IMG/VR virus record: IMGVR_UViG_3300045988_160259
Location: 1-64,000 of that record
Origin: a virus
Length of the DNA: 64,000 nucleotides
Direction: 5' to 3' (one strand)
The notes under the pieces are model-generated. The model was not told the DNA's origin. It saw only the letters and a list, made by a program, of their open reading frames with translations, and made no database searches. The translations under genes were made by a program, and so were the position numbers. Below are positions 275-48,918 of the stretch, in pieces. Positions within the stretch are counted from its first letter, which is position 1. Each line of letters starts with the position of its first letter.

Positions 275-326
275 TCAGTAGCTATAGGAAAGAACACGCC
301 TCAAATTTATAATATCACTTAATATT
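275..326 (-). CDS. predicted terminal mini-exon of the tape measure gene (..EGV|ILSDIINLRRVLSYSY*)
   Basis: Follows the predicted omega-G at 327. Its first 6 nt AATATT can pair with AATATT beside the internal guide (P10). It completes the split GT|A codon in frame. Confidence 0.35.
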
Positions 327-632
327 CAAATAGTCTATATTTTTCAAACCGCCAATCGCTTGCGGTCTTACATTAAGGCATTACGCCACCCAATATGGGT
401 TAGTCTCTGAACGTCTTCCATATCATTTCTGACTTAGGAAGTTCGCTGCGTCTGGGAGACTTGCACTCCCGGTTATCCCTAGTTTAATTATTTTTATGGT
501 TTCTATCCAATAACGAACTGTGAGTTTAAAACTCTACCGCATTCACGCCTTCCGTTTCCGGTTACGTTGTAGCTAATTAAACCTTATGGGGACTTCCCGC
601 AATTAAATAGATTTTACAGGAGCAAATATTTT
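327..632 (-). ncRNA. group I self-splicing intron in the 3' end of the tape measure gene
   Basis: Minus strand carries, in canonical order, P-like AATTGCGGGAAGTCCCC (588-604), Q-like ACGCAGCGAACTTCCTAAGTCAG (429-453), R GTTCAGAGACTAA (400-412) and S-like AAATATAGAC (331-341). P1 is AGGGGT|AAA pairing with GCTCCT (618-623). Confidence 0.75.
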
Positions 633-3600
633 ACCCCTTCTAAAGCCATGATTTGTGCCTTAATAGCATTAATATCATTGCTCTTTTTGGATATTGATTT
701 ATCATAGGAATAATAGTCAGCTTTTGCTTGAAGCGCCGACTTTCTCTTTTCTATGATTTTATCAAGATAATCAACCTCTGTACTCATAGCATTCTTATAC
801 AGATCAACCAGACTGTCCTGATATGATTTCACATCTGCAATCGAACCTTGAATACCTTCACGGTAATCTTTTGACTTGTCATTATATTCCGTTAAGGAAA
901 TAACCCCATTGTCATAAGACTCTTTTAGTTTTTGCAGACCCGTGGTATAATCTGCAATTTTTTGTTTTGCCGTACCAATACTCTGCTGTAAGAGAGCAAT
1001 CTGTGCCAATCCATCTTCAGTAATGCGGCCTTGTTTATCAAGGAATGCATCATCGTTCAGAAGGGCGCGGAAACTTTTCAGCTCATCTTCAAGGTCACTG
1101 TACTTCTGGATAGCATCGTCAAGTGGCTTGAAACGTAGCTCATAGATACTATCTTGAAGAGATTCATTGTCCGTAATTAGTTCCAGAGTATTTTCTTTTA
1201 GCGTTTGAATCTTTTCTGCATAATCTTGATACGATTTAGAATTGACATCAAGAACCGCCTGTTTCTTCCGGTATATTTCCATCTGCTTTAGATTCTGCTG
1301 TACCTGAGCGTTATTATTATCTATACGGTCAGTGTATAAATTCTCTGGCACATCACGATTCTGGGATTGCAGGTAAGAAATATATTTCTCCGTAATATCC
1401 GAATTACGTTTGATTCCGTCAATTACATTCTGGATAGTATCAATTTTAATCTGATCCAATTTATCCCGTAGTTCAAGAAGGCTAGTAGAAGCATCGTAAA
1501 TCTTAGCTGTGAAATCTTGAATATTTTTCATAGCAGCTTGATAAGCTTCGGAACCTTTCTTAAGATAACCACTGGAAAGTTGTGAATTTACTTCTTTCTG
1601 ATAATCGGAAAGCTTTTTGGTAAGCTGATTGTAAGTATCTTCCTGTGCTTTGATGGAATTATTCAGATTAGCATAATTGTCTGGATTGTCGATGGCTACG
1701 CCAAGTGCATCATTCAAGGATATTTTGGAATCGGCTACGGATTTTATCGCATCATTGATGTCTACGATCGCATCATATTCTTTTTCAATGATTTCCAGAC
1801 GTTTTTCGGCGAGTTCGGTGATTTTATCTTCGAGCTTTAACGCATTGTCTCTTGCAGATAAGTAAGATTCATAATAGCTTTGGAAGTCATTAATTTTCTT
1901 TTTCAGATCTTCATCTGTGATGGTATCTATATTAATACTACCATTCATGATCTGGTTCTTATAAGCATCAGACAAACTAATGCTATTAGCTTTTGCCAGA
2001 TAAGCATCTGCTGCCCGTTGATTATGAACCATTTCATTCGTTGCCTTACCGATTGCATCTGCCGCGGCTGCTTGTTTATTTGCAAGACCTACTGCACGTT
2101 CGATTGCATCAGTTGCAAGTTCTGTCATACGGGACAGACGGGAGAGCATAATTTTGATAAAATCAATTACTTCTTCGGTTGTTGACTTTGCATCAGAAGA
2201 GGACGAAGAGCCGCCGGAACTTCCTCCGGAAGATGATCGAGTTGAACCACCGGAAGATGTTCCACTGTTTCTACGACTACTGCCATCAGAAGATGAGTTA
2301 TGGCTGGTATTATTCTGTTTCTTTTTGTCTTCCCATGTGGAAGAATCCGCTTTTGTTCCAGAACTTCCAACATTAAATCTTCCCGATCCACCAGAGAACG
2401 CACTACCTAAAGAATAACCACCACCTGCAAGTTGTGCATGAGAGCCGGTAACATAACCATGTTCAAGTAACTGCTCCGTCTGATCACCGTTAAATACAAC
2501 ATCATCTTTCTTTAGATTTGCAAAAGTAGGATCGCCGCCATTCAAGATAAACGCCTTACCATCCCGAACGATTGCTTCTGGTTTTAACTCATTTACAAGC
2601 GCATGTGGTTCATTGTGAGCAAGTCCCCAATTACGGCTTGCAGTACCTGCCGCATGAGCAGTTCCTATAGCGTGTGCCGTACCATTTACTTTTGGAGCCG
2701 TACCATTAGTCTTAATATTGTAAGTCAGACTTCTTGTTTTATTACCTGGTAGATTTTCAAGTCCGGAAACAACCACACTGTAAATAACCGTAGCATTTTT
2801 GTCTTTCGGATCATAACTGTCAATCGCACTATGGTCAACTTTGTATTTTACCGTAGCGTCCTTATCTTTCGGCGTATAATTTACAATCGCTTCTTCGTTT
2901 ACACCAGCTTTTACAAGTAATTCTGGCGTAATTCCAGAAATCTTTGTAGAGACGTCGGCAAGAGCATTCGGATCAAGATTTACCCCTATTCCTACATCAA
3001 TCGGATGAGTAGCAATATTAGAAAGTTTCGACTGAAAATCAGTATCGTCAAGACCTAACTTTGCTGTCGTATCAGCATCAAGATTCTGTAGCTGTCCTGC
3101 CAACTGTTGTACTTTCTGCTGTGCATCTGTGGTATCAATGTCGATACCCTGTGTTTTCATCGTATTCTGTGCGTTCAGAATCTCTACAGCATTCTGATAT
3201 TCCTGTAATTTTCCAATCGCATTGCCCAGTTCTCCGTCAACCTGCGAAGTATCAACCTGTAGAATAGCTGGTGTATTTTCAAGATTTTGCTTCGTAGCGT
3301 ACAGGGATTGTAAACTGTTGACAGCATCTTGTGTATCGGCATTAACAGGAATCGTGCCGTCATCATTTCTGAACTGCTCCAACTGACTCTTCAGATCAGA
3401 GATCTTTTGATCGACAGAACTTGCATCCGCATCAATTACAATATTATTTTGTCCAGCCTCTTGCTGTTTCTGTACCAGATAGTCAAGAATATTATTGGCT
3501 TGCTCTAATCGTTCTGTCCGAACTTCTGGTTCCAAATCAGCGTCATTGACTTGCTGAATATATTCCTTAACCTTGTCAATATCATCTGTGATTTCACTGA

Positions 3601-6250
3601 ATGAATCTGTGTCCAAATTGATGCTATCAAGAGAAGTTTCACCCATTCCATCAAGAGCTTCTTTTGCAGACTGAGCTTCTGTCTTTAGTTGTTCCAGAGA
3701 TTTAACCGGCTGATCGAGGTCGATGTCAAAGCCAAAATCATGCAGTTTTCTTAACACTGATTGTACAGCTTCCACATCAATTCCCAGTGCATCCGCAATT
3801 TCTTGATCGTTTCCGACACCAAAGTTAATATCCCAGGAACCATCTTCATTCATGTGCGCCCATTCAGAATTAAGGTTAGAGATATCTTGTAAGAATGCTT
3901 GACATCCTTCCTGTCCTTCTGTGAAGTAACGCTCCATCTTCGGATAGGATTCTTCATAGGCAGTCACAATTTCATCTACACTGGCATTGGTCAGATCCTT
4001 ATTGGACATAAGGTCAACAAACTCACGGAATTTGTTTTCTCCTACAAGTCCCTTATCATATAGATCTTTGATGGATTCCATGTTACCCTGGATGGAATTA
4101 TACATATCACCTTCTTCACCACCGGACATAGCATCCTGCCATTGTTGATAAGCAGAAGTAGCAGTTTGATACTGATATGCTAGATCCTCCAGAGAGGAAA
4201 TATTATCCAAAATACCTTCGCGCTGTGCCTGTAAGCCGCTGACATCTTGACCTTTGACCATTGCATCGGCAATCTGCTCCTCGATTTGTCTCAGAGCTTC
4301 TTGTTGATCTGCAAGGCCGGAAAGATAATCCGCTTTGTTCATTTCAGATTGTTGCGCCTGTAGTTTTGCAAGTTCTTCACGGTTGATATGATAACCGTCT
4401 GCTGTTTTCTCCAGAGCACGCTCCGCATCATCTCCGAACATCTCTTTAAATGCTTTGACATTATCAGCAGAAATACCTGCTCCCGAAACAGATTCGGACA
4501 TAATCGTCTTAAGTGTTTCCAAATTTGCTTGCGCTTGCTGAATGGTAGTATTGATTTCTGAGAAGGAATCATCCACTTGATTCATGGATACGGTTGCCGT
4601 CATACCCATATCCGTTAAGAGATCAACAACTTTTGCCACACTTTCAGCAGAATCATCAGAAACAATTCCGAGATCCATTGCTTCGTTTACTGCCATGCGT
4701 AGAGCATCTTTACCAGACACAACATCACTTGTGTCAAGATTGATGCTCTTGAGGTCAATGTCTGTGTAATTCTTCAACTCTTTGAGTTTCGAAAGTACAG
4801 TATTATTTAACTTATCTGCACCTCTACCGGATAAGCGTTCTTTGAACTCATAAGTCTTTTCGGATGCTGTATCAATACCATCTGCAATCTCATCAAACAG
4901 TTCCTTGTATTTTTTACCGGAATCTCTACTGACAATATTATCTACGGATGCTTTTACTCCATCTAATGCAGTCTTTGCTTCTTCAACTTTAGAAGTATCT
5001 CCACTTTGCAAAGCTTCGTTATATTTGTCCACAGCATCCGCATATTGCTGATACACAGTTGCTGGTTTATTATTACCGTAACCTTCTGCAAGCATGGAAT
5101 TTTTCAGATACTCTTGATAGACTTCTTGGTGCTTATCCAAAATATCTTTATAGGAAGATTCCGCATCTTCCGCGGAACTGATAATATTGTCAAAGTAATC
5201 AGTATTCTTGCCCTCATCTTGGAATTGACGCTTCAGCTCTTTGACAGTGGCAAGGAAATTGTTCAGCTTTTCATCTGCTCCTGTAACTGTTTCATTTTCA
5301 AAACCGAGTTGGAACTGACCTGTAGCCACACCATTATATTGTTTGAGTCCTGCTTGCTCTGCCGCTTTCTGGATTTCTTCGACCTGAGACTTACTGTTCC
5401 GGTAACGTTTGAGCATCTCTTTATAGGTATCAGAATTTGTATATTCAGATTTCTGTGGTTCCGATCCGAGCATAGCTAAAGTAGGAGTGTTACCAAAGAA
5501 TGACTCATAATCATCTTTGGTCATGGCTTTATTAACTTTTTTGTATGCTTCTTCATGATCGGGGTCATTCAGCCAGCTTTTCGCATTTTCAACCTTAAGC
5601 TGTTGCATCTTCTCAACCTGTTCATCCAGCTTACCATTTACCAGATCAATTCCATCTGCTTGCTCACCGTAAGAATCAGATAATTGACTTTGGATATCAA
5701 GCAATTGACTCTTCGTGTTGTATGCTTCTTGCTCCGTAAGAGTACCGGATGCTAAAGACTCTTTTAACTCTTGTACTTTTTGAATATTATCATCTAAAGA
5801 TTTATTCTTTTTTTCTAAGACACTTGAGTCCTCTTTTGTTTGTTGTATTTGTTCTTGAAGATGTTGTTGTTGTGCTCTATATACTCCAAAACCAACCGCT
5901 ACGGCTGCTAAAGCACCAGTAAATATACCTAATGCAGTTGTTGATATACCAATTGTTGCTGCTAAACCAGAAAATGCTGTTTTTAGACCAGAAAGTCCAC
6001 TGGATGACGCTTCTAGTTCGTGCATTTTTAAGATTACATCGTCTGTGTTATCTGCTAAATCCGCTGCTTTTAAAGCAGCCGCGGCGAATTCATCAGAAAT
6101 ATCTGCGCTATAAAATACTTTTGCTATATCAGTTACATTAGACAATCCCTTGATAGCATCCGCAACACGATCTTTGCTTGAAGATGCAGAGATTACTTGA
6201 TCTGCGATAGATAATAAATCTTTTCCTATACTTGCTTTTTTTAATGACAA
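614..6250 (-). CDS. tail tape measure protein, distal part (1878 aa ORF; predicted exon 6247->633)
   Basis: N-terminal hydrophobic segment, long coiled coil, LVNELKPEAIV motif and a Ser/Gly-rich linker. The only start is a TTG with no SD, 3 codons after an in-frame TAA. The last 6 codons and the stop lie in the intron. Confidence 0.8.
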   Translation of the reverse strand: MSLKKASIGKDLLSIADQVISASSSKDRVADAIKGLSNVTDIAKVFYSADISDEFAAAALKAADLADNTDDVILKMHELEASSSGLSGLKTAFSGLAATIGISTTALGIFTGALAAVAVGFGVYRAQQQHLQEQIQQTKEDSSVLEKKNKSLDDNIQKVQELKESLASGTLTEQEAYNTKSQLLDIQSQLSDSYGEQADGIDLVNGKLDEQVEKMQQLKVENAKSWLNDPDHEEAYKKVNKAMTKDDYESFFGNTPTLAMLGSEPQKSEYTNSDTYKEMLKRYRNSKSQVEEIQKAAEQAGLKQYNGVATGQFQLGFENETVTGADEKLNNFLATVKELKRQFQDEGKNTDYFDNIISSAEDAESSYKDILDKHQEVYQEYLKNSMLAEGYGNNKPATVYQQYADAVDKYNEALQSGDTSKVEEAKTALDGVKASVDNIVSRDSGKKYKELFDEIADGIDTASEKTYEFKERLSGRGADKLNNTVLSKLKELKNYTDIDLKSINLDTSDVVSGKDALRMAVNEAMDLGIVSDDSAESVAKVVDLLTDMGMTATVSMNQVDDSFSEINTTIQQAQANLETLKTIMSESVSGAGISADNVKAFKEMFGDDAERALEKTADGYHINREELAKLQAQQSEMNKADYLSGLADQQEALRQIEEQIADAMVKGQDVSGLQAQREGILDNISSLEDLAYQYQTATSAYQQWQDAMSGGEEGDMYNSIQGNMESIKDLYDKGLVGENKFREFVDLMSNKDLTNASVDEIVTAYEESYPKMERYFTEGQEGCQAFLQDISNLNSEWAHMNEDGSWDINFGVGNDQEIADALGIDVEAVQSVLRKLHDFGFDIDLDQPVKSLEQLKTEAQSAKEALDGMGETSLDSINLDTDSFSEITDDIDKVKEYIQQVNDADLEPEVRTERLEQANNILDYLVQKQQEAGQNNIVIDADASSVDQKISDLKSQLEQFRNDDGTIPVNADTQDAVNSLQSLYATKQNLENTPAILQVDTSQVDGELGNAIGKLQEYQNAVEILNAQNTMKTQGIDIDTTDAQQKVQQLAGQLQNLDADTTAKLGLDDTDFQSKLSNIATHPIDVGIGVNLDPNALADVSTKISGITPELLVKAGVNEEAIVNYTPKDKDATVKYKVDHSAIDSYDPKDKNATVIYSVVVSGLENLPGNKTRSLTYNIKTNGTAPKVNGTAHAIGTAHAAGTASRNWGLAHNEPHALVNELKPEAIVRDGKAFILNGGDPTFANLKKDDVVFNGDQTEQLLEHGYVTGSHAQLAGGGYSLGSAFSGGSGRFNVGSSGTKADSSTWEDKKKQNNTSHNSSSDGSSRRNSGTSSGGSTRSSSGGSSGGSSSSSDAKSTTEEVIDFIKIMLSRLSRMTELATDAIERAVGLANKQAAAADAIGKATNEMVHNQRAADAYLAKANSISLSDAYKNQIMNGSINIDTITDEDLKKKINDFQSYYESYLSARDNALKLEDKITELAEKRLEIIEKEYDAIVDINDAIKSVADSKISLNDALGVAIDNPDNYANLNNSIKAQEDTYNQLTKKLSDYQKEVNSQLSSGYLKKGSEAYQAAMKNIQDFTAKIYDASTSLLELRDKLDQIKIDTIQNVIDGIKRNSDITEKYISYLQSQNRDVPENLYTDRIDNNNAQVQQNLKQMEIYRKKQAVLDVNSKSYQDYAEKIQTLKENTLELITDNESLQDSIYELRFKPLDDAIQKYSDLEDELKSFRALLNDDAFLDKQGRITEDGLAQIALLQQSIGTAKQKIADYTTGLQKLKESYDNGVISLTEYNDKSKDYREGIQGSIADVKSYQDSLVDLYKNAMSTEVDYLDKIIEKRKSALQAKADYYSYDKSISKKSNDINAIKAQIMALEGVKYLLL

Positions 6251-35176: not shown

Positions 35177-35204
35177 ATGTATGTCTCCTTTTATAAAAAA
35201 ATAA

Positions 35205-35287
35205 TACCGGCAGCGAGACTCGAACTCGCACTGCTCATAACAATCTGGGCTTAAACCAGATGTGTCTACCAATTCCACCATACCGGC
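35205..35287 (-). tRNA. tRNA-Leu(UAA), long variable arm
   Basis: Hand-folded cloverleaf. Anticodon arm TCTGG-TTTAAGC-CCAGA, T arm GCGAG-TTCGAGT-CTCGC. Acceptor stem has two G.U pairs. Confidence 0.8.
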
Positions 35288-35322
35288 ATACGGAGGCACT
35301 GCCTCCATTCGCTAATTATATA

Positions 35323-35412
35323 CGGAGCCTGTAGGATTCGAACCCACGCGCCGCTATTAACGGCCTATCAGTTTTCAGGACTGACCTCTTCAACCAACTT
35401 GAGTAAGACTCC
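35323..35412 (-). tRNA. tRNA-Ser(UGA), long variable arm
   Basis: Anticodon arm TCAGT-CCTGAAA-ACTGA, T arm GTGGG-TTCGAAT-CCTAC, acceptor GGAGTCT/AGGCTCC. Confidence 0.85.
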
Positions 35413-35421
35413 AAACAAAAA

Positions 35422-35505
35422 TGGGCAGAGCAGGAGTCGAACCTGCGGTGTTTCTAATGTAACGGATTTACAGTCCGTCGCTATCGCCACTAAGCACATC
35501 TGCCC
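35422..35505 (-). tRNA. tRNA-Tyr(GUA), long variable arm
   Basis: Anticodon arm ACGGA-CTGTAAA-TCCGT, T arm GCAGG-TTCGACT-CCTGC, acceptor GGGCAGA/TCTGCCC. Confidence 0.85.
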
Positions 35506-35547
35506 ACAAAAATAGGAGAGTAAACCGAAATATTGGATTCACTCTCC
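35506..35547 (-). terminator. hairpin plus U-tract immediately upstream of the tRNA cluster
   Basis: Minus strand GGAGAGT..ACTCTCC followed by TATTTTTGT. Confidence 0.5.
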
Positions 35548-39121: not shown

Positions 39122-39354
39122 TATATTTTGGTTTCTCCTTTTGCTAAGAAATATATTTTTTAGAAAAGGAGAATTGGTTGGTAATTATCCAACAAAGTTC
39201 TCCATTGCTGGTGTGATAGGAACATACCCTATACATTCGTTCCACCAATAGAGATGAGATAGGAGAGCATTAACCATCCTATATTACTCATTACCAGGTT
39301 ATCCACCCGTCTCTAATCATTTATTCTCTGCACTCATTTGCAGAAAATTGTAAA

Positions 39355-39426
39355 CAGGAAGCCAGGGATTCGAACCCTGATTAACAGTTTTGGAGACTGT
39401 CGTGTTACCAATTACACTAACGACCT
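39355..39426 (-). tRNA. tRNA-Trp(CCA)-like, acceptor stem with two mismatches
   Basis: Good D, anticodon (ACAGT-CTCCAAA-ACTGT) and T arms (CAGGG-TTCGAAT-CCCTG). Acceptor AGGTCGT/GCTTCCT mispairs at 4:69 and 5:68. Confidence 0.55.
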
Positions 39427-39468
39427 GTATTTGAGTGTGTAAGCTGCAGTCTTACACACTCAACAAAA

Positions 39469-42318: not shown

Positions 42319-42996
42319 TTAAATAATTTCATCTAAACTTGTGATAATTTTATCAGCAACACCATATTTAATAGCTTCTTTCGCAGATAAATACCAGTCA
42401 TTTTCAAAGTTTTCATTAAATACATCTTCTGGAATCTTTGTTCTAGATAAAACAAAGTCACCAAGTTCTTCGATTTGTCGTTGATAATTTAAAATTGCTG
42501 CAACTACATCATTGTATGTCCCAGCAAATTGACCAGCTCCCTTATGGATGAGGAATTCTGCCGTTGGAAATGTAAAACGCTCATGACATGCTAAATAAAT
42601 AAAGCATCCACTTGATGCAGCAATACCAACATTAATTCCAATAACTTTTGTTTGGCTTAGTTGAATTGTATCAACCAAACAGTTATTTACTTCTAAATCG
42701 CCACCAGGACTAAAGAAGATTACTTTAATTGGTTTACGTTCTTCTACTGGAATATTATTTTTCTTATCTTCCGAATTCCACTGCATAATCATCTTTGCAT
42801 ATTCCAAAGTCATGGTTGTAATTTCATCATCAATCCAAATAATTCTATCATCGTAATTTTTATAAAATTGTAATAGCGTAGGATCTGGCAACTGTAAATT
42901 TTCTACATTACTTGGAATTGCAATATCTAAATATGTTGCTTCTAATTTTTTCTTGAGTTCCTTTTTCTCCATTGGCAATATGCCTCGTGCTTTCAT
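42319..42996 (-). CDS. ClpP-family serine protease
   Basis: FFSPGGD.., GIAASSG (Ser) and LIHKGAG (His) motifs. Confidence 0.8.
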   Translation of the reverse strand: MKARGILPMEKKELKKKLEATYLDIAIPSNVENLQLPDPTLLQFYKNYDDRIIWIDDEITTMTLEYAKMIMQWNSEDKKNNIPVEERKPIKVIFFSPGGDLEVNNCLVDTIQLSQTKVIGINVGIAASSGCFIYLACHERFTFPTAEFLIHKGAGQFAGTYNDVVAAILNYQRQIEELGDFVLSRTKIPEDVFNENFENDWYLSAKEAIKYGVADKIITSLDEII

Positions 42997-43014
42997 AATA
43001 TTTCCATAAAAGGA

Positions 43015-44253
43015 TTAATCTAATAAATCTGCCATAGCTGCAGTTTCACTTCGTTCTGTTTTCTGAAGCTGTACATAACCAAATTTTGTATGTCCTGCAA
43101 GTTTTTGTACAGTGGATAGTAAACCATTATTCATTCTAAAAAGAGTAGAATCTGTTTGTTTAAAATCTCCGTTCATCCAAAGAGCAGATCCTTCACCAAC
43201 TCGTCCAATAAGAAGCTGGACATGTTCTTTTGTTAGATTTTCTGCTTCACTAACGTAGATAATCGCATTTTTAATATCTCGTCCTCGAATATAACCGAGA
43301 TGTTCAACTTCAATATTTCCTGCCATAATCTGCATTTCCAGACCATTTTCTCCACCAAGGTGATCTGCTAACGGCATTGCAAAGGGCAAAATCTTCTCAA
43401 ATTTAGTACCAGGTAAGAAACCAACCTCATTTGCATCTTTTACGCCAATTGCATTTCTGACATAAATTAATTTCTCAAATTTTCCTTCTTCGATTAATTT
43501 GATAGCATTTGCAATCATGAGATAGTCTTTTCCACTACCAAATCTACCTGAGATAACTTTGATTGTCTCTTCTTTGTCCTGTAGCATATCAAATGCTAAA
43601 ACCTGTTGTGGGTTTCTTGGTTTGATTTTGCCCATAAAATGACTATTGATTTGTTTATAAGAAATAGGATGATATTCTTGTCCATTCCATTTTCTGTAAT
43701 CAACAACCTCACCATCATTCTTTCGAATTATCAGATATTCATTCAGAAGTGAATCATATTGATTTTCATTTAAATGTAAATAAAAATAACTCATTTCCTC
43801 ATCAGAAAGAGTTACATCTTTGTATCCTGTGTATTCATCAATATTTTTAACAAGATTTATTTCATTTACACCTTTAGTTGGTAGTTTAAAAATATTTTTT
43901 GAAATAAATTTACAATTGAGATCGTCTGTACAAACAATGACAGGAGATACATTTCGATTATATAAAACTGCTGATGCAAGAATAATGTTATCAGGTGTTT
44001 CCTCTAAGTAATATCCTGCAAGAATTTTTTTTACATCTGTGTTAGTTGCGACAACCTCATATTCTCCATAATGCTCATCCAGCATATGAGCCGTTTGTCT
44101 GGCTTTGTATTTAACTTCATTATCTTTATGACCTGAAGTCTTAATACTTTCAATCTCTTCAAGCGTCTTCTGTGAGATAATAAAGGGTTCTTTAAAAGCT
44201 TCCCTTTGCAAATTCAGAAGAGCATTGGTATCTAGGAATAATTTAAATTCCAA
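43015..44253 (-). CDS. PIN-domain / PhoH-like ATPase
   Basis: N-terminal LFLDTNALL (PIN), Walker A GRFGSGKD, PhoH block IRGRDIKNAIIYVSEAENLT..GDFKQTD. Confidence 0.8.
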   Translation of the reverse strand: MEFKLFLDTNALLNLQREAFKEPFIISQKTLEEIESIKTSGHKDNEVKYKARQTAHMLDEHYGEYEVVATNTDVKKILAGYYLEETPDNIILASAVLYNRNVSPVIVCTDDLNCKFISKNIFKLPTKGVNEINLVKNIDEYTGYKDVTLSDEEMSYFYLHLNENQYDSLLNEYLIIRKNDGEVVDYRKWNGQEYHPISYKQINSHFMGKIKPRNPQQVLAFDMLQDKEETIKVISGRFGSGKDYLMIANAIKLIEEGKFEKLIYVRNAIGVKDANEVGFLPGTKFEKILPFAMPLADHLGGENGLEMQIMAGNIEVEHLGYIRGRDIKNAIIYVSEAENLTKEHVQLLIGRVGEGSALWMNGDFKQTDSTLFRMNNGLLSTVQKLAGHTKFGYVQLQKTERSETAAMADLLD

Positions 44254-44286: not shown

Positions 44287-44499
44287 TTAGCGATGATATA
44301 ATTTTTTTCTATAATTTTCGAGAAGTCTCATATTATGAGGAGTCTCACACAAATAGAATTTTTTACGTTTATGACATGATTCCGAATGGGATACGCCACC
44401 TTCCGCATAAGGAACTCCATGCTTTACTAAATATTCTTTCTCTTGTTTAGTAATGAGTACTATATTAATGCACACCTTTCGTTTTAAATTTCTTTGCAT
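44287..44499 (-). CDS. small hypothetical protein
   Basis: The track ORF runs into tRNA-Ile, so the internal ATG at 44499 is taken. No clear SD. Confidence 0.4.
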   Translation of the reverse strand: MQRNLKRKVCINIVLITKQEKEYLVKHGVPYAEGGVSHSESCHKRKKFYLCETPHNMRLLENYRKKLYHR

Positions 44500-44518
44500 T
44501 TGCCACAAAGATAAATAG

Positions 44519-44592
44519 TTGGGGTGGTAGGACTCGAACCCACGACCGTTCGGATATAAGCCGAATGCTCTCGCCAACTGAGCTACACCGCA
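44519..44592 (-). tRNA. tRNA-Ile(UAU)
   Basis: Anticodon arm TTCGG-CTTATAT-CCGAA, D arm GCTC/GAGC, T arm GTGGG-TTCGAGT-CCTAC. One C.C mismatch at 3:70. Confidence 0.75.
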
Positions 44593-45463
44593 ATAATGCT
44601 ACATAAGTAGCAAAATAAGTACGCTGAGATTAAACGTATCTTCGGAAACCTTTACCGACATTATTTTTTCTTCGGTTATCCACTATATGTTGCTTACGCA
44701 CACACATAGTATCTTCCACAACCGCCTTTTGAGAAGAGGCTTATCTTCTTTACTGTATGACTACTCAAGTTTCATCATTCCATTAACACTGCCGTGCTAT
44801 AAATCTCCGCTAAGAGAACTGTGCAGAATCCGCTTAACACATCCAGATATTGCGTATCTTTCAGTGTGTGTATTACCTCCGAAGAGATTACACATTTTGG
44901 CTGCTTACACCATACAGAGGTACAGACTTTCGCTTTATAATTTGTTTGCCTTTTGCATCAAACCAATTTTTATGTTCTTCCTGAATATACTAATTAATAG
45001 AAACGAAATTGAATACAGAAGACGCGCTGCACCAGATGTTTCGTTATCTTTTGGATAACAAAATCCATCACGCCTTCGTAGCTTTCGGTTATAATCCCTA
45101 CTCACATCCTGCATAAGCTAATTTGGCATCTCTACCAATTCACTTACCCAAATGGACATCGCACTTGTCTAATAAGGACTCGCACTATATATCCTTCTAA
45201 TTCCCCATCATATCTTCATAGGTTCGCGTGAGCTATTCTGTTGCGCAGAAAAATGATTCTCAGCGGTTGCCCCTGAATCACCTTGTTGCTCCCTATTTCC
45301 TGACACTATTTCCACACAGGACTTACTCGTTTTACCGGTATGAAACGGCACTTTTTGAGTGCCTGGGATGTTAGTTTTGCATAGATTGACCAATTTTCAT
45401 GGCGACGAGTTGTAAATTCGCCTTTAATACGCTCACACGCATCTATCTGTGCTATGCCACGAG
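44593..45463 (-). ncRNA. large ORF-free structured RNA candidate between two tRNA(-like) genes
   Basis: ~870 nt with no credible ORF and many hairpins, including cUUCGg loops. Shares CACGCCTTC..GGTTA..AGCTAATT blocks (45068-45124) with the intron at 540-578. Strand inferred from the flanking tRNAs. Confidence 0.4.
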
Positions 45464-45536
45464 TTGCGGGACTACGAGTCGAACGTAGCTTTAGAGAATA
45501 TGAATCTCTCGTGGAACCGATCCAGCATATCCCGCG
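45464..45536 (-). tRNA. tRNA-like element with CAU anticodon and C1.A72 ends (degenerate D arm)
   Basis: CGCGGGA...TCCCGCA ends as in bacterial initiator tRNA. Anticodon arm AGAGA-TTCATAT-TCTCT, T arm CTACG-TTCGACT-CGTAG. The D stem is poor. Confidence 0.45.
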
Positions 45537-45625
45537 ATAATACTGGCAAACTATTATATCTGCCAGTAAAAAATAAAACATAAAAGAAAGAGGAGATAAT
45601 TATGAAATTAACATAAAGAATTAAC

Positions 45626-45657
45626 CTTTTTAAAAGGGCGGCAGAGAGTAACCGCCC
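45626..45657 (-). terminator. intrinsic terminator
   Basis: Minus strand GGGCGG-TTACTCTCTG-CCGCCC followed by TTTT. Confidence 0.7.
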
Positions 45658-45663
45658 ATGTAA

Positions 45664-45960
45664 CTAATTAAAATAATTATTTAATTTTCTGTTATAATAT
45701 CTAGTGATTTTTGGTTTTGCCCAAATTTTCGGTTCACATTTGATATTTTCGTAAGTATGGATTTCATGTTCTGGAATATATTCACATTCCAAACTCAACC
45801 CATCTAAAAGTTTTACCACTGTATTTTCAGTGGGAGTAGTAGAAGATAAGTAGGCAAATACACATTTCTCCATTCGCTTAACAACTTTACGAACGATTGC
45901 TACATTAATATCTTCTTTGCTAGCGATTTCTTTGATAATATTTTCTTGTGTAATTGTCAA
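45664..45960 (-). CDS. HU/IHF-like small DNA-binding protein candidate
   Basis: 98 aa with an N-terminal ITQENIIKEIASKEDINVAIVRKVV pattern resembling the HU fold. Immediately downstream of the RNAP-like gene. Confidence 0.4.
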   Translation of the reverse strand: MTITQENIIKEIASKEDINVAIVRKVVKRMEKCVFAYLSSTTPTENTVVKLLDGLSLECEYIPEHEIHTYENIKCEPKIWAKPKITRYYNRKLNNYFN

Positions 45961-46152: not shown

Positions 46153-48918
46153 TTATCTTTTACGCTTTCTTTCACGGTCTAATTTCTTACGATATTCACG
46201 TTGACAATCATCACATCTTACTGATTTTGACTTAGAATCAACCTCAATCCATTCTCCACAATCCATGCATTGAATAAACTTTGTCGATTTAATTTTGATA
46301 TTATTATTCAAATTATTTACTACATATTGTCCATAACAAAACCAGAAGAGTTGTTTTCCTCTCTTTTCGTTTCCATATAAATATTGAATCAACATATCAG
46401 CAATAACATCTTCTGAATATCCAAAATCTAAAAATTGATTTCGAATAGAACAAGCAACATAATGAAGATTATCAATATATTCATCTTTCATATTTACCAT
46501 ATAACGGTATTCTTTATTGAGCTTATCATATAAATTAGAAACTTCTTTTGAACATACAATATTTACATTGTGCATCATTTTTTGATAATCTAACTTCCCT
46601 AATTTCATTCCTCTTGTGTTTATAGATTTATTAGGGATTTTGTCATATAATTTATTAACAAAACTTTGATTGCGCATACTAACTTGATCAGCTTCTTTAT
46701 CTTTTGCATATTCAAAGAATGCAGGTAACTTCGCGTTCGTAAATTCCTTGATTTCATCATTAATACGATCGGGAAAAGCAGGTTTGTACAAAGTTTTGGC
46801 GTAATCGATCACAAAATTATTCTGACAACATAAGCGTTTTACACAATCAATAGCATGTTGCTTTTCTTCTTCTGACCCATTAATAAATACATCGTTATTC
46901 CAGATCTTTGAAATATTATTACTATAAATTCCAATATTGCCACCGGTAAATGCAGCATTAAGCCCATCATAAATGTTTTGGTTATTCAAAAGTTTTGGCT
47001 CTGCTTTGCGCATATTATAATAAAGAGGAACAATTCCTTCCATATTTTTCTCTGCGATATTCACAAAATTTAGATCTGCAACAACTAAAGATTTATCTCC
47101 ATCCACATCGAACTGTAAAATTTTACTGATCAAATCACGAGTACTGGTATAAACTCCGTTTGTTGTAAACCATTGTCTGATTCTTCGAGATCGTTCCCCA
47201 TATTTCTCATGCGCAACGTTCAAACGAATAGCATGTTCTTTGTAAAGATGTGGGCTGCGGAGACAATCAAGCTTCTCATTTTTGTTAAAAAGCCAACAGA
47301 ATACTTCTTTGTCATTTAGCAACCCTTCTGGGGTATCTATATGTTTAAACCAATATTCACAAGCCGCATAAAAATCCGGTAAAAGGAATGTATATTTCCC
47401 ATGGACTTCAAGTTTCCCGCTGCGATATTTCTTCACAAGACTATTTTTTACTTCACGAATTACATCTTTAGCATAGGTATCATTCAATAATGCAGGATAA
47501 AGTTTTACAGCTTTTTGAAATGGTGTCATATTTGTATTATATGGGGTGATACCTAAAATCTCTTTGACTGTTTTTTCTGAATTGCAAATATTGGTAATTT
47601 TATCAACTGACCTTTTCGTAAGTAAATCAATCTCTTCATCTGTAATATCAGTTAATGTCTGCAACATTTGATAGTTAATTTTTGCATCTTTAATTCTATC
47701 TTCTTCAATATTACACCGACCAGCCTGACAATTATATTTTTTAAAATTATCCTTATACTCATCCCAAGAATCATAAAACTTATACATCTTGAATTGACTT
47801 TTGGTAAAGATAATCCGAATATCATCATCAAAAATATTATACTCTTTGCCGTATATATCTTTGATAGTAGGAGATCCATCATTTACTTCAATAAACTTTC
47901 TGAAATCAAAAACTCCTAATAATCCTTTTACCCATGGCGCACGAAACATAGTATTTTTAGTCATAACTGATGGAAGCATCATACCAGCTCCATCAGTATG
48001 AGGAATCGGTACATCACCAGTTTTTCTTGTAATTGAATAATCCGACTCATCAATAAAATCAAAAGTCCCTGGTACATTCGTTTCAAAATCATCAATTACT
48101 ATACAACGGTCAATATCAAAATCAGTCCACTGGTCAGTTGCAGAATTTGCTAATGCCATATAAGCTAAATGTTTATTTACATTATTACCACCCTTTGAAT
48201 TGATCTTTTCTATTGTAAGGCCACACATAATAGTTTTTTCAACCTTATCCCAAACAGATTCTTTAATAAATACTGCTTTTTTCTTCCTGATTTGCCCAGC
48301 AGAAGAAGTAAAATATCTATATTTTTCACCTTTATATGTAAAACCATAAAAAGAAATATCTTTAAATACATCAAAATAGTAAATTTGAACCACAATTAAA
48401 GCATCCGTCAGTTCATCTTTTTTTATACCGATAGAGCGAGTAAGAGATGATTCAAATACAGAGATAATATTTTGATCTGTTAATTCTTCTTCTCTTAAAC
48501 GTCTTAGCGGGATTTGATTATATGGAATATTTTGTGAAATACAATAACCAATTTTATTAGACAACTTCTCTTTATTAAGAACTTTATTTTTTAGAAGTGT
48601 TAAAAGTTTTTCTTTTGATGCTTTTGCTTTCTTTCGTTTATGTTCTATAATCAAATTTAATCTGACATAATTTTTAACCATATCATTAGTTAGAAGACGA
48701 TAATCTTTTTCTGTATACGCTTTGAATTCTTTAATCTCTTCTAATGTATAACCATTTAAAAGTAGTTCATTTTCTGAATTGGAAAGCATATTATTCACAT
48801 AATTTCGTTCGCTTCTGTATTTACAATTCATTTCATGCAAATATTTTTCATGATTACTGTAAAAATGTCCCGTATCCACAGAATACATATTAATTTGTGT
48901 ATCTAAAATAACTATCAT
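46153..48918 (-). CDS. YonO / RdRP-like single-subunit two-barrel RNA polymerase
   Basis: Motifs FTSSAGQIRKKK, HTDGAGMM, LRSPHLYKEH and the metal-binding FDVDGDK (47095-47109). C-terminal CxxC..CxxC zinc ribbon. Confidence 0.65.
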   Translation of the reverse strand: MIVILDTQINMYSVDTGHFYSNHEKYLHEMNCKYRSERNYVNNMLSNSENELLLNGYTLEEIKEFKAYTEKDYRLLTNDMVKNYVRLNLIIEHKRKKAKASKEKLLTLLKNKVLNKEKLSNKIGYCISQNIPYNQIPLRRLREEELTDQNIISVFESSLTRSIGIKKDELTDALIVVQIYYFDVFKDISFYGFTYKGEKYRYFTSSAGQIRKKKAVFIKESVWDKVEKTIMCGLTIEKINSKGGNNVNKHLAYMALANSATDQWTDFDIDRCIVIDDFETNVPGTFDFIDESDYSITRKTGDVPIPHTDGAGMMLPSVMTKNTMFRAPWVKGLLGVFDFRKFIEVNDGSPTIKDIYGKEYNIFDDDIRIIFTKSQFKMYKFYDSWDEYKDNFKKYNCQAGRCNIEEDRIKDAKINYQMLQTLTDITDEEIDLLTKRSVDKITNICNSEKTVKEILGITPYNTNMTPFQKAVKLYPALLNDTYAKDVIREVKNSLVKKYRSGKLEVHGKYTFLLPDFYAACEYWFKHIDTPEGLLNDKEVFCWLFNKNEKLDCLRSPHLYKEHAIRLNVAHEKYGERSRRIRQWFTTNGVYTSTRDLISKILQFDVDGDKSLVVADLNFVNIAEKNMEGIVPLYYNMRKAEPKLLNNQNIYDGLNAAFTGGNIGIYSNNISKIWNNDVFINGSEEEKQHAIDCVKRLCCQNNFVIDYAKTLYKPAFPDRINDEIKEFTNAKLPAFFEYAKDKEADQVSMRNQSFVNKLYDKIPNKSINTRGMKLGKLDYQKMMHNVNIVCSKEVSNLYDKLNKEYRYMVNMKDEYIDNLHYVACSIRNQFLDFGYSEDVIADMLIQYLYGNEKRGKQLFWFCYGQYVVNNLNNNIKIKSTKFIQCMDCGEWIEVDSKSKSVRCDDCQREYRKKLDRERKRKR

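What the first reader, a model, noticed from the sequence alone, without database searches (positions are those of the whole stretch)
44593..45463. ~870 nt ORF-free structured region sandwiched between tRNA-Ile(UAU) and an initiator-like tRNA mimic
The only ORFs here (44687..45058, 45208..45393, 45306..45581) have implausible composition and overlap tRNA-like sequence. The region is visibly more GC-rich than its surroundings. It contains many helices (GGCACT-CAAAA-AGTGCC, GGCGA..TCGCC, a long imperfect helix capped by cUUCGg, GTTT..TACCGGTA..AAAC). One ~60 nt block is homologous to the P4-P6 side of the tape measure intron. No host gene or split tRNA that it could interrupt is evident. It could be a free-standing or decayed group I-like RNA, or a large tRNA-linked RNA of the kind (GOLLD/ROOL) known to sit beside phage tRNAs. 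It starts just after a strong terminator (45626-45657).
Basis: partly seen in the sequence, partly recalled or inferred. Interest (0 to 1): 0.65.

Follow-up and report, generated by a model that had tools for sequence, protein, structure and literature searches.

The report
GOLLD RNA gene between phage tRNAs
The ORF-free stretch is a phage copy of GOLLD, a known giant non-coding RNA that assembles into hollow RNA-only cages, so it is a clear but ordinary member of a described family rather than a new kind of RNA.

Summary
Window 44621-45460 on the minus strand is a full-length GOLLD RNA of about 840 nt. Rfam RF02032 matches 44621-45078 end to end at 196 bits (gathering score 150, E 1e-54). This is the conserved 3' domain.

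The remaining 382 nt (45079-45460) are a 5' domain. It is conserved in more than 50 large uncultured phage contigs. Its structure is well supported: 89 pairs, 99.6% paired, and 32 pairs with compensatory changes.

The RNA keeps the loops that make inter-subunit contacts in the solved GOLLD cages: L14 CAAAA, the complementary J13/15 GC and L20 CGCAA, and L21b GGCA.

It lies between a non-canonical tRNA(CAU)-like cloverleaf (45465-45535) and tRNA-Ile(UAU) (44518-44592). The order tRNA(CAU), GOLLD, tRNA recurs in related phages.

Neither the group I intron reading nor the claimed 60-nt homology to a tape-measure intron finds any support. The ORFs in the region are not conserved.

The phage appears to infect Bacillota and encodes a YonO-like RNA polymerase next to the element.

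Verdict: a new member of a known family. The biological function of GOLLD is still unknown, and interest is low to moderate.

The parts
45626..45657 (-). Intrinsic terminator hairpin of the upstream 98-aa ORF (GGGCGG...CCGCCC followed by UUUU). It marks the start of the RNA-gene block.
   Evidence: -14.8 kcal/mol, z -3.05. The sequence was read.
45538..45566 (-). Stable 11-bp hairpin just 5' of the tRNA-like element. Weak sigma-70-like -10 hexamers (TATAAT, TATTAT) overlap it. Its role is unknown.
   Evidence: -15.2 kcal/mol, z -6.46; promoter-like site at 45566-45537, 9 of 12 matches; inverted repeats occur at the same place in L004 and L001.
45465..45535 (-). Non-canonical tRNA(CAU)-like cloverleaf. 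It has a 7-bp acceptor stem, a canonical T arm (GUUCGACUC), a UUCAUAU anticodon loop, a weak 3-bp D stem, and A at position 8. It ends 4 nt before GOLLD.
   Evidence: ARAGORN finds it only with -ps; no Rfam tRNA match at E<=10; cloverleaf MFE -24.3 kcal/mol, z -2.5; conserved at this position in relatives. A canonical tRNA-Met(CAU) occupies the equivalent place in other clades.
45079..45460 (-). GOLLD 5' domain (variable domain) of a subtype shared by 6 of 32 GOLLD clusters sampled. The consensus has 16 helices.
   Evidence: the homology boundary lies at 45460; 89 pairs, 99.6% of cells paired against 36-44% when slid, and 32 pairs with compensatory change against 0-5 when slid; distribution of the subtype; no sequence similarity to the env-38 5' domain.
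44621..45078 (-). GOLLD conserved 3' domain (P14-P27), matched over the full length of the Rfam model.
   Evidence: RF02032, 196 bits, gathering score 150, E 9.4e-54, model positions 1-416 of 416.
45049..45053 (-). L14 loop CAAAA. In env-38 the equivalent adenines A447/A448 make the inter-chain A-minor contact B6.
   Evidence: conserved in nearly all clusters; contact table of Kretsch et al. The mapping is by alignment and is an inference.
44924..44936 (-). J13/15 conserved motif AAAGCGAAAGUCU. Its GC dinucleotide (44933-44932) is complementary to the L20 loop.
   Evidence: the J13/15 and L20 dinucleotides are complementary in 121 of 122 GOLLDs (GC:GC, GG:CC, GA:UC).
44850..44854 (-). L20 loop CGCAA. 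It is the partner of J13/15 in the inter-subunit kissing contact, bridge B7 of env-38.
44808..44813 (-). L21a loop, here a 6-nt UUAGCG variant of the usual CGCAA. It still contains the self-complementary GC.
   Evidence: the variant is shared by window-type clusters. L21a GC/CG forms the symmetric contact B8 in env-38.
44790..44793 (-). L21b tetraloop GGCA, identical to env-38, where G675-C676' forms the symmetric contact B9. The G.U wobble in the fourth stem pair is also kept.
44593..44620 (-). 28-nt 3' trailer with a small hairpin (GCUACUUAUGUAGC), lying between GOLLD and tRNA-Ile.
   Evidence: -7.9 kcal/mol, z -2.5; the 28-nt spacing is conserved in close relatives.
44518..44592 (-). tRNA-Ile(UAU), canonical, on the same strand immediately 3' of GOLLD.
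   Evidence: ARAGORN. (Rfam tRNA, 62.5 bits).

Best explanation

Shown here:
- The 3' 458 nt are a full-length match to the conserved GOLLD domain.
- The 5' 382 nt are a structured, covarying variable domain.
- The whole 840-nt unit is conserved as a block in many phage contigs.
- It sits on the same strand between a tRNA(CAU)-like cloverleaf 4 nt upstream and tRNA-Ile(UAU) 28 nt downstream, with no terminator in between.

Inferred:
- The three RNAs are made as one precursor that starts after the terminator at 45626-45657.
- RNase Z, or an equivalent 3' processing enzyme, cuts at the discriminator of the cloverleaf. RNase P cuts at the 5' end of tRNA-Ile. Together they would release an RNA of about 870 nt.
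- Like the two GOLLDs solved by cryo-EM, this RNA would then self-assemble without protein into a closed dihedral cage of roughly 10-14 copies. The 3' domains would form the ring and the contacts between half-shells, through L14 A-minor, the L20:J13/15 kissing pair, and the self-complementary L21a and L21b loops. The 5' domains would form the caps. The A/U-rich J13/15 linker would point into the lumen.

What the cage does for the phage is unknown. The leading published ideas are that it encloses or sequesters tRNAs, ribosomes or other macromolecules during lytic growth.
For: - Rfam GOLLD matches at 196 bits against a gathering score of 150, E 1e-54, model positions 1-416 of 416.
- The same family is found at the homologous place in MT835469.1, at 172.6 bits.
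- Homology of the full 840 nt extends to 50 or more IMG/VR loci in identity groups of 97-99%, about 90%, about 70% and about 68%. The boundaries coincide at 45460 and 44621.
- The 5' domain has 89 pairs. 99.6% of cells are paired, against 36-44% in slid controls. 32 pairs carry compensatory changes, against 0-5 in slid controls.
- The J13/15 and L20 dinucleotides are complementary in 121 of 122 GOLLDs across three covarying states, and the window has GC:GC.
- The window keeps L14 CAAAA and L21b GGCA. These are the residues that make bridges B6 and B9 in env-38.
- The order tRNA(CAU), GOLLD, tRNA is conserved in relatives.
- Published work (Kretsch et al. 2025, PMC12286853; review PMC12990946) reports RNA-only cages of 14, 12 and 10 copies. 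It also reports the location of GOLLD in phages near tRNA islands, higher expression during phage lysis, and that env-38 lies downstream of a Met-tRNA.
Against: - No expression, end-mapping or assembly data exist for this sequence.
- The 5' domain shows no detectable sequence similarity to the 5' domain of env-38 (nhmmer E 0.069 over 35 nt). Its cap geometry and the copy number of the cage therefore cannot be predicted.
- L21a is a 6-nt variant loop.
- No convincing sigma-70 promoter was found.
- The upstream cloverleaf is non-canonical. It might be a pseudo-tRNA that is processed poorly, or not at all.
- About half of the GOLLD clusters sampled have no flanking tRNA within the range searched (about 1,150 nt upstream and 300 nt downstream of the GOLLD 3' end). 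Processing through tRNAs therefore cannot be a general requirement of the family.
Confidence: 0.88

Rival explanations
1. It is a free-standing or decayed group I-like intron or ribozyme, related to an intron in the tape-measure gene.
For: The only support is a weak, sub-threshold Intron_gpI match elsewhere in the window, at 310-642 on the minus strand (21.7 bits against a gathering score of 50, E 0.29). This shows that an intron may exist in this phage.
Against: No Intron_gpI match lies in 44300-45900 at E<=1. BLAST finds no block of the region similar to 310-642 or to any other place in the window. The whole interval is accounted for by GOLLD. No split gene or split tRNA flanks it.
Confidence: 0.01
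2. The region codes for small proteins, from the ORFs at 44687-45058 (+), 45208-45393 (-) and 45306-45581 (-).
For: The ORFs exist. A stop-free stretch of 145 aa is present in the window and in its closest relatives.
Against: The open frames collapse to 55-84 aa in relatives at 94% identity or less, while the RNA structure is kept through compensatory changes. Alignment with MT835469.1 shows many indels that are not multiples of three. One ORF overlaps the tRNA-like element.
Confidence: 0.01
3. It is a different tRNA-linked large RNA, such as ROOL or an undescribed class, and only resembles GOLLD.
For: The 5' half has no Rfam model. It is not similar in sequence to the 5' domain of the solved env-38 GOLLD.
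Against: The family-defining 3' domain matches end to end, above the curated threshold. It carries the family's characteristic L20:J13/15 covariation. A variable 5' domain is itself a described property of GOLLD. No ROOL match was found at E<=1.
Confidence: 0.02
4. It is a GOLLD-derived relic that is no longer functional, like the degenerate tRNA next to it.
For: The neighbouring tRNA(CAU)-like element is sub-threshold for tRNA finders. L21a departs from the consensus loop.
Against: Every helix of both domains is intact, and 99.6% of cells are paired in the 5' domain. All other contact loops are kept. The element is maintained across phage lineages that are only 68-70% identical. This indicates purifying selection.
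Confidence: 0.04

Closest known systems
GOLLD RNA (Rfam RF02032; Weinberg et al. 2009; cryo-EM structures env-38 14-mer PDB 9MEE and Streptococcus agalactiae 12-mer PDB 9L0R)
   Same: The conserved 3' domain matches at full length, at 196 bits. The size is about 840 nt. The RNA has two domains. It lies in a phage beside tRNAs. The L14 CAAAA, J13/15:L20 complementarity and L21b GGCA contact elements are all kept. Like env-38, it sits directly downstream of a tRNA(CAU).
   Different: The 5' domain belongs to a subtype found in 6 of 32 sampled clusters and has no detectable sequence similarity to that of env-38. The L21a loop is UUAGCG rather than CGCAA. The upstream tRNA(CAU) has a degenerate D arm and lies only 4 nt away.
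GOLLD copies in Mycobacterium/Mycolicibacterium tRNA arrays (Morgado et al. 2020, cited in PMC12990946)
   Same: GOLLD is embedded in a run of tRNA genes on the same strand.
   Different: Those copies can carry a tRNA inside the J13/15 linker. Here the linker (about 44937-45016) holds no tRNA, and the tRNAs flank the RNA.
ROOL RNA (Rumen-Originating, Ornate, Large)
   Same: It is a large phage or plasmid non-coding RNA found near tRNAs. It also forms RNA-only cages.
   Different: Its sequence and fold are unrelated, and its 5' and 3' halves are intertwined. No Rfam match to it was found here.
Group I self-splicing introns (Rfam RF00028)
   Same: Both are large structured RNAs found in phage genomes.
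   Different: There is no model match, no P4-P6 or P3-P9 core, and no flanking exons.

Membership tests
GOLLD RNA (RF02032) | Covariance-model score for the conserved 3' domain at or above the curated gathering score | tested here: met
   196 bits against 150, E 9.4e-54, model positions 1-416 of 416, no truncation.
GOLLD RNA (RF02032) | Total size of about 700-850 nt, with a less conserved, structured 5' domain in front of the conserved 3' domain | tested here: met
   Homology boundaries give 840 nt. The 382-nt 5' domain has 89 pairs, 32 of them with compensatory changes.
GOLLD RNA (RF02032) | Complementarity between the L20 loop and J13/15. This is the pseudoknot-like covariation of Weinberg 2009, shown to be the inter-chain bridge B7 in env-38. 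| tested here: met
   The window has J13/15 GC (44933-44932) and L20 CGCAA (44854-44850). Across 122 GOLLDs, 121 are complementary, in three covarying states.
GOLLD RNA (RF02032) | Conserved contact loops L14 (CAAAA) and L21b (GGCA), and a self-complementary dinucleotide in L21a | tested here: met
   L14 CAAAA lies at 45053-45049 and L21b GGCA at 44793-44790. L21a is a UUAGCG variant that keeps GC. The mapping to env-38 residues is by alignment and is an inference.
GOLLD RNA (RF02032) | Location in a phage or prophage, often next to tRNA genes | tested here: met
   The neighbouring genes are of phage type: PhoH-like, head-maturation/ClpP-like protease, and YonO-like RNA polymerase. tRNAs flank the RNA. 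Relatives lie on 80-216 kb viral contigs.
GOLLD RNA (RF02032) | 5' domain with the canonical P1-P13 architecture seen in env-38 | tested here: inconclusive
   A 5'-domain HMM run with nhmmer against env-38 gives no significant match (E 0.069 over 35 nt). Only the GUAGGGAU motif just before P14 is visibly shared. The family is described as having variable 5' domains. Structural equivalence could not be tested.
GOLLD RNA (RF02032) | Self-assembly into an RNA-only dihedral cage of 10-14 copies | not testable with these tools
   This needs in-vitro transcription followed by mass photometry or cryo-EM.
GOLLD RNA (RF02032) | Expression that rises during lytic growth | not testable with these tools
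   No transcriptome is available for this uncultured phage.
ROOL RNA | Match to the Rfam ROOL covariance model | tested here: not met
   No match at E<=1, either in the region or in the whole window.
Group I intron (RF00028) | Match to the catalytic-core model, and flanking exons of an interrupted gene | tested here: not met
   No match lies in 44300-45900 at E<=1. The only weak match in the window is at 310-642. No split gene or tRNA flanks the region.
Bacterial initiator tRNA (for the upstream cloverleaf) | A mismatch at positions 1 and 72, and three consecutive G-C pairs at the bottom of the anticodon stem | tested here: not met
   The ARAGORN fold shows G1-C72 paired and an anticodon stem AGAGA/UCUCU. 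The element also fails the general Rfam tRNA model.

The most novel reading that the evidence does not exclude
In this GOLLD subtype the tRNA(CAU)-like cloverleaf 4 nt upstream is not a decoding tRNA. It is a conserved functional module of the GOLLD precursor. It keeps an intact acceptor stem and T arm but has a degenerate D arm. One possibility is that it serves as a dedicated RNase P/Z handle that sets the 5' end of GOLLD. The more interesting possibility is that it stays attached, so that each cage displays or encloses 10-14 tRNA-like units. That would tie the unknown function of GOLLD directly to tRNA biology, for example as a decoy for host anticodon nucleases or as a store for phage tRNAs. 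Two observations are compatible with this. tRNA(CAU) is the flanking or embedded tRNA in 12 of 32 GOLLD clusters sampled. The solved env-38 GOLLD also lies downstream of a Met-tRNA.
Probability: 0.1. Interest if true: 0.6.

Novelty: new member of a known kind. Interest (0 to 1): 0.25.

Why it matters
GOLLD is one of the largest bacterial and phage non-coding RNAs. Cryo-EM showed in 2025 that it forms RNA-only cages larger than a ribosome, yet its biological function is unknown.

This copy adds nothing categorically new. It does give a well-bounded example from gut phages that probably infect Bacillota. It comes with more than 30 distinct relatives, a 5'-domain subtype supported by covariation, and a recurrent order of tRNA(CAU), GOLLD, tRNA. 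Together these could help in designing experiments on processing and cargo.

For the genome scan, the main value is that a puzzling ORF-free region is now explained.

Tried and rejected
- **Group I intron.** The whole window was searched in Rfam at E<=1. This gave only a weak match at 310-642, unrelated to the region. BLAST of the region against the rest of the window found nothing above chance. The reading was rejected.
- **Coding potential.** The ORFs are not conserved. Rejected.
- **Near relatives among cultured phages.** Megablast of 24 kb around the region against the INPHARED collection gave no match. Only one unannotated faecal phage, MT835469.1, shares the RNA, at 68% identity.
- **Host identification.** Scanning 185,579 species genomes for a 5'-domain 18-mer gave 65 hits. 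All but one were chance matches in unrelated genomes. The one true hit is a 5.7-kb contig binned with an Elusimicrobiales MAG, probably a mis-binned phage fragment. The host therefore remains inferred from protein similarity alone.
- **5'-domain comparison with env-38.** nhmmer found no significant similarity. The env-38 sequence, recovered from a machine-read PDF, had 815 of 833 nt. Residue numbers were therefore anchored locally on G656/C657 and checked against U646/U647, U669/G670, G675-A677 and U681/A682. The exact register of U617/C618 within CUCUCAA is ambiguous by 2 nt.
- **Rfam tRNA model on the upstream cloverleaf.** No match.
- **Sigma-70 promoter scan.** Only weak sites were found.
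- **Weinberg et al. 2009.** The paper is not held in the library. Several supplement term searches returned nothing.
- **First regex attempts for J13/15 and L20.** These picked the wrong hairpins. They were replaced by a search restricted by position.

Full report
**What is there**

A scan of the whole window against Rfam at gathering thresholds places GOLLD (RF02032) on the minus strand at 44621-45078. The score is 196 bits against a gathering score of 150, with E 9.4e-54. The match covers model positions 1-416 of 416 without truncation. A more permissive scan of 44300-45900 returns only this match and the neighbouring tRNA.

The Rfam model describes only the conserved 3' half of GOLLD. These are expected to be the variable 5' domain.

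**Extent of the element**

A distant BLASTN search of phage records finds one record that shares the RNA: MT835469.1, an unannotated 176-kb phage from human faeces. It aligns at 68% identity over query positions 241-1078, which are window 45460-44623. That locus also scores as GOLLD, at 172.6 bits.

Two exact-pattern scans of IMG/VR brought in 60 loci from viral contigs, most of them 80-216 kb. BLASTN of the 840-nt interval against these loci gives end-to-end alignments in identity groups of 97-99%, about 90-94%, about 70% and about 68%. The ends coincide across groups. The unit is therefore 44621-45460 on the minus strand, 840 nt in all.

**The 5' domain is a real structured RNA**

An RNAalifold consensus over 24 distinct 5' domains has 89 pairs in 16 helices. 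Thirty-two of these pairs carry compensatory changes. Counting the pairs on that alignment gives the following:

| Measure | Structure as given | 3' partners slid by 1-3 columns |
|---|---|---|
| Cells forming a standard pair | 99.6% | 36-44% |
| Pairs with a change on both sides | 32 | 0-5 |
| Covariation score | 0.424 | 0.04-0.10 |

GGCACU-CAAAA-AGUGCC lies at 45347-45363, and GGCGA...UCGCC lies at 45401-45422. The proposed GTTT..TACCGGTA..AAAC helix is not the conserved pairing.

An HMM of this 5' domain finds no significant similarity in env-38, the GOLLD solved by cryo-EM (E 0.069 over 35 nt). It matches only 6 of 32 GOLLD clusters sampled from IMG/VR. This fits the published description of GOLLD as having a conserved 3' domain and a variable 5' domain.

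**It is not coding**

The longest stop-free stretch is 145 aa in the window. It falls to 68-84 aa in relatives at 90-94% identity, and to 55-65 aa in the 68-70% group. The helices are nevertheless maintained. The alignment with MT835469.1 has many indels that are not multiples of three.

**It is not a group I intron**

No intron model matches the region. The only weak match in the window lies at 310-642, at 21.7 bits and E 0.29. BLAST of the region against the rest of the window gives only chance-level hits. The claimed 60-nt homology to a tape-measure intron is therefore not reproducible.

**Flanking tRNAs**

tRNA-Ile(UAU) lies at 44518-44592, 28 nt downstream on the same strand.

Upstream, ARAGORN at lowered thresholds calls a 71-nt tRNA-Met(CAU) at 45465-45535, 4 nt before GOLLD. 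It is missed at default thresholds. The Rfam tRNA model finds nothing there even at E<=10. On its own it folds as a cloverleaf, at -24.3 kcal/mol with z -2.5. It has a good acceptor stem and a canonical T arm, but only a 3-bp D stem.

It is not initiator-like. G1-C72 is paired, and there is no run of three G-C pairs in the anticodon stem.

The arrangement is conserved. Every close relative with enough flank has the same cloverleaf 2-4 nt upstream and tRNA-Ile(UAU) downstream. In the 68% group a canonical tRNA-Met(CAU) sits 54 nt upstream, with tRNA-Arg downstream. Two loci of the 70% group have tRNA-Met(CAU) 11 nt upstream.

Across the 32 clusters of diverse GOLLDs, 16 have a flanking tRNA. 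tRNA(CAU) is directly upstream in 6, directly downstream in 5, and apparently embedded in 1. Kretsch et al. note that env-38 also lies downstream of a Met-tRNA, and that tRNAs are sometimes embedded in the linker.

**Contact elements for cage assembly**

Supplementary Table 2 of Kretsch et al. lists the inter-chain contacts of the env-38 14-mer. These are B6 (A447/A448 of L14), B7 (U617/C618 of L20 with A547/G546 of J13/15), B8 (G656-C657' in L21a) and B9 (G675-C676' in L21b).

Aligning representatives of the 32 clusters together with env-38 gives the following for the window:
- L14 is CAAAA, at 45053-45049.
- J13/15 is AAAG-GC-GAAAGUCU, with the GC at 44933-44932.
- L20 is C-GC-AA, at 44854-44850.
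- L21b is GGCA, at 44793-44790, with the G.U wobble in its stem kept.
- L21a is a 6-nt UUAGCG variant that still holds GC.

A search restricted by position over 122 GOLLDs finds the J13/15 and L20 dinucleotides complementary in 121. There are three covarying states: GC:GC in 19 clusters, GG:CC in 12, and GA:UC in env-38. This independently reproduces the known covariation. It also shows that the window retains the contact.

**Genomic context**

All neighbouring genes lie on the minus strand.
- Upstream is a 921-aa protein. It matches Pfam RdRP. It is 46-51% identical to proteins of SPbeta-like Bacillus phages and Clostridium phage D-1873; Enterocloster and Thomasclavelia phages also match, all below 60% identity. 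I read it as a YonO-like single-subunit RNA polymerase, by analogy with Forrest et al. 2017 (PMC5467207). That identification is an inference.
- It is followed by a 98-aa ORF and a terminator hairpin at 45626-45657 (-14.8 kcal/mol).
- Downstream are a PhoH-like protein and a ClpP-like or head-maturation protease.

The host is therefore probably a gut member of the Bacillota. A genome-wide pattern scan did not identify a lysogen.

**How it most likely works**

Shown: the family identity, the boundaries, the structure of both domains, the retention of the contact loops, and the same-strand tRNA flanks with no terminator between them (one search finds none that is credible).

Inferred: transcription starts between the terminator and the cloverleaf. 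Only weak sigma-70-like sites are present there, and a phage polymerase promoter is possible. The tRNA-processing enzymes then cut at the cloverleaf's discriminator and at the 5' end of tRNA-Ile. The RNA would then assemble, without protein, into a dihedral cage like those of env-38 (14 copies) or S. agalactiae GOLLD (12 copies).

The copy number cannot be predicted, because it depends on the 5' domain, and that differs here. The biological role remains unknown. Published hypotheses are that the cage encloses tRNAs, ribosomes or other macromolecules.

**Verdict**

The element is a clear member of a known, curated family. It carries some subtype-specific features: the 5'-domain subtype, the L21a variant, and the closely abutting non-canonical tRNA(CAU)-like element. 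It is a new member of a known kind, of low to moderate interest.

Noticed in passing
window 58475-58541 (+): A Pistol self-cleaving ribozyme (RF02679) matches at 69.5 bits against a gathering score of 34.5, over the full model.
   Followed up: no
window 310-642 (-): A weak, sub-threshold group I intron match (21.7 bits against a gathering score of 50, E 0.29) lies at the 3' end of the 1878-aa ORF 614-6250. It shows no similarity to the GOLLD region.
   Followed up: partly
window 46153-48918 (-): A 921-aa protein lies two genes upstream of GOLLD. It matches Pfam RdRP and is 46-51% identical to proteins of SPbeta-like Bacillus phages and Clostridium phage D-1873; Enterocloster and Thomasclavelia phages also match, all below 60% identity. 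It is probably a YonO-like single-subunit DNA-dependent RNA polymerase.
   Followed up: partly
window 45538-45566 (-); also L004 and L001, upstream of their tRNA(CAU): A very stable hairpin (-15.2 kcal/mol, z -6.5) lies immediately 5' of the tRNA(CAU)-like element. Unrelated sequences with long inverted repeats occupy the same position in two other clades. Its function is unknown. It could be a 5' stabiliser, a processing signal or a promoter element.
   Followed up: partly
IMG/VR loci L062-L164 (32 GOLLD clusters): tRNA(CAU) is the most frequent tRNA next to GOLLD. It is directly upstream in 6 clusters, directly downstream in 5, and apparently embedded 166-237 nt before the 3' end in L069. 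L069 lacked recognisable J13/15 and L20 motifs, so that last case is uncertain.
   Followed up: partly
L165 (JAUNWB010000104.1, 5,661 nt, binned as an Elusimicrobiales MAG), 4111-4474 (-): This short contig carries a window-type GOLLD 5' domain (294 bits with the 5'-domain HMM). It is probably a phage fragment mis-binned into the MAG.
   Followed up: no
window 35204-35506 (-) and 39354-39427 (-): Further phage tRNA genes lie on the same strand: Leu(UAA), Ser(UGA) and Tyr(GUA) in a tight cluster, and Trp(CCA).
   Followed up: no
window 42319-44253 (-): A PhoH-like protein (43015-44253) and a ClpP-like or head-maturation protease (42319-42996) lie just downstream of the tRNA-Ile.
   Followed up: no
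L032 (IMGVR_UViG_3300045988_123311): This is the only one of 122 GOLLDs in which the L20 loop (CACAA) is not fully complementary to J13/15 (GC).
   Followed up: no
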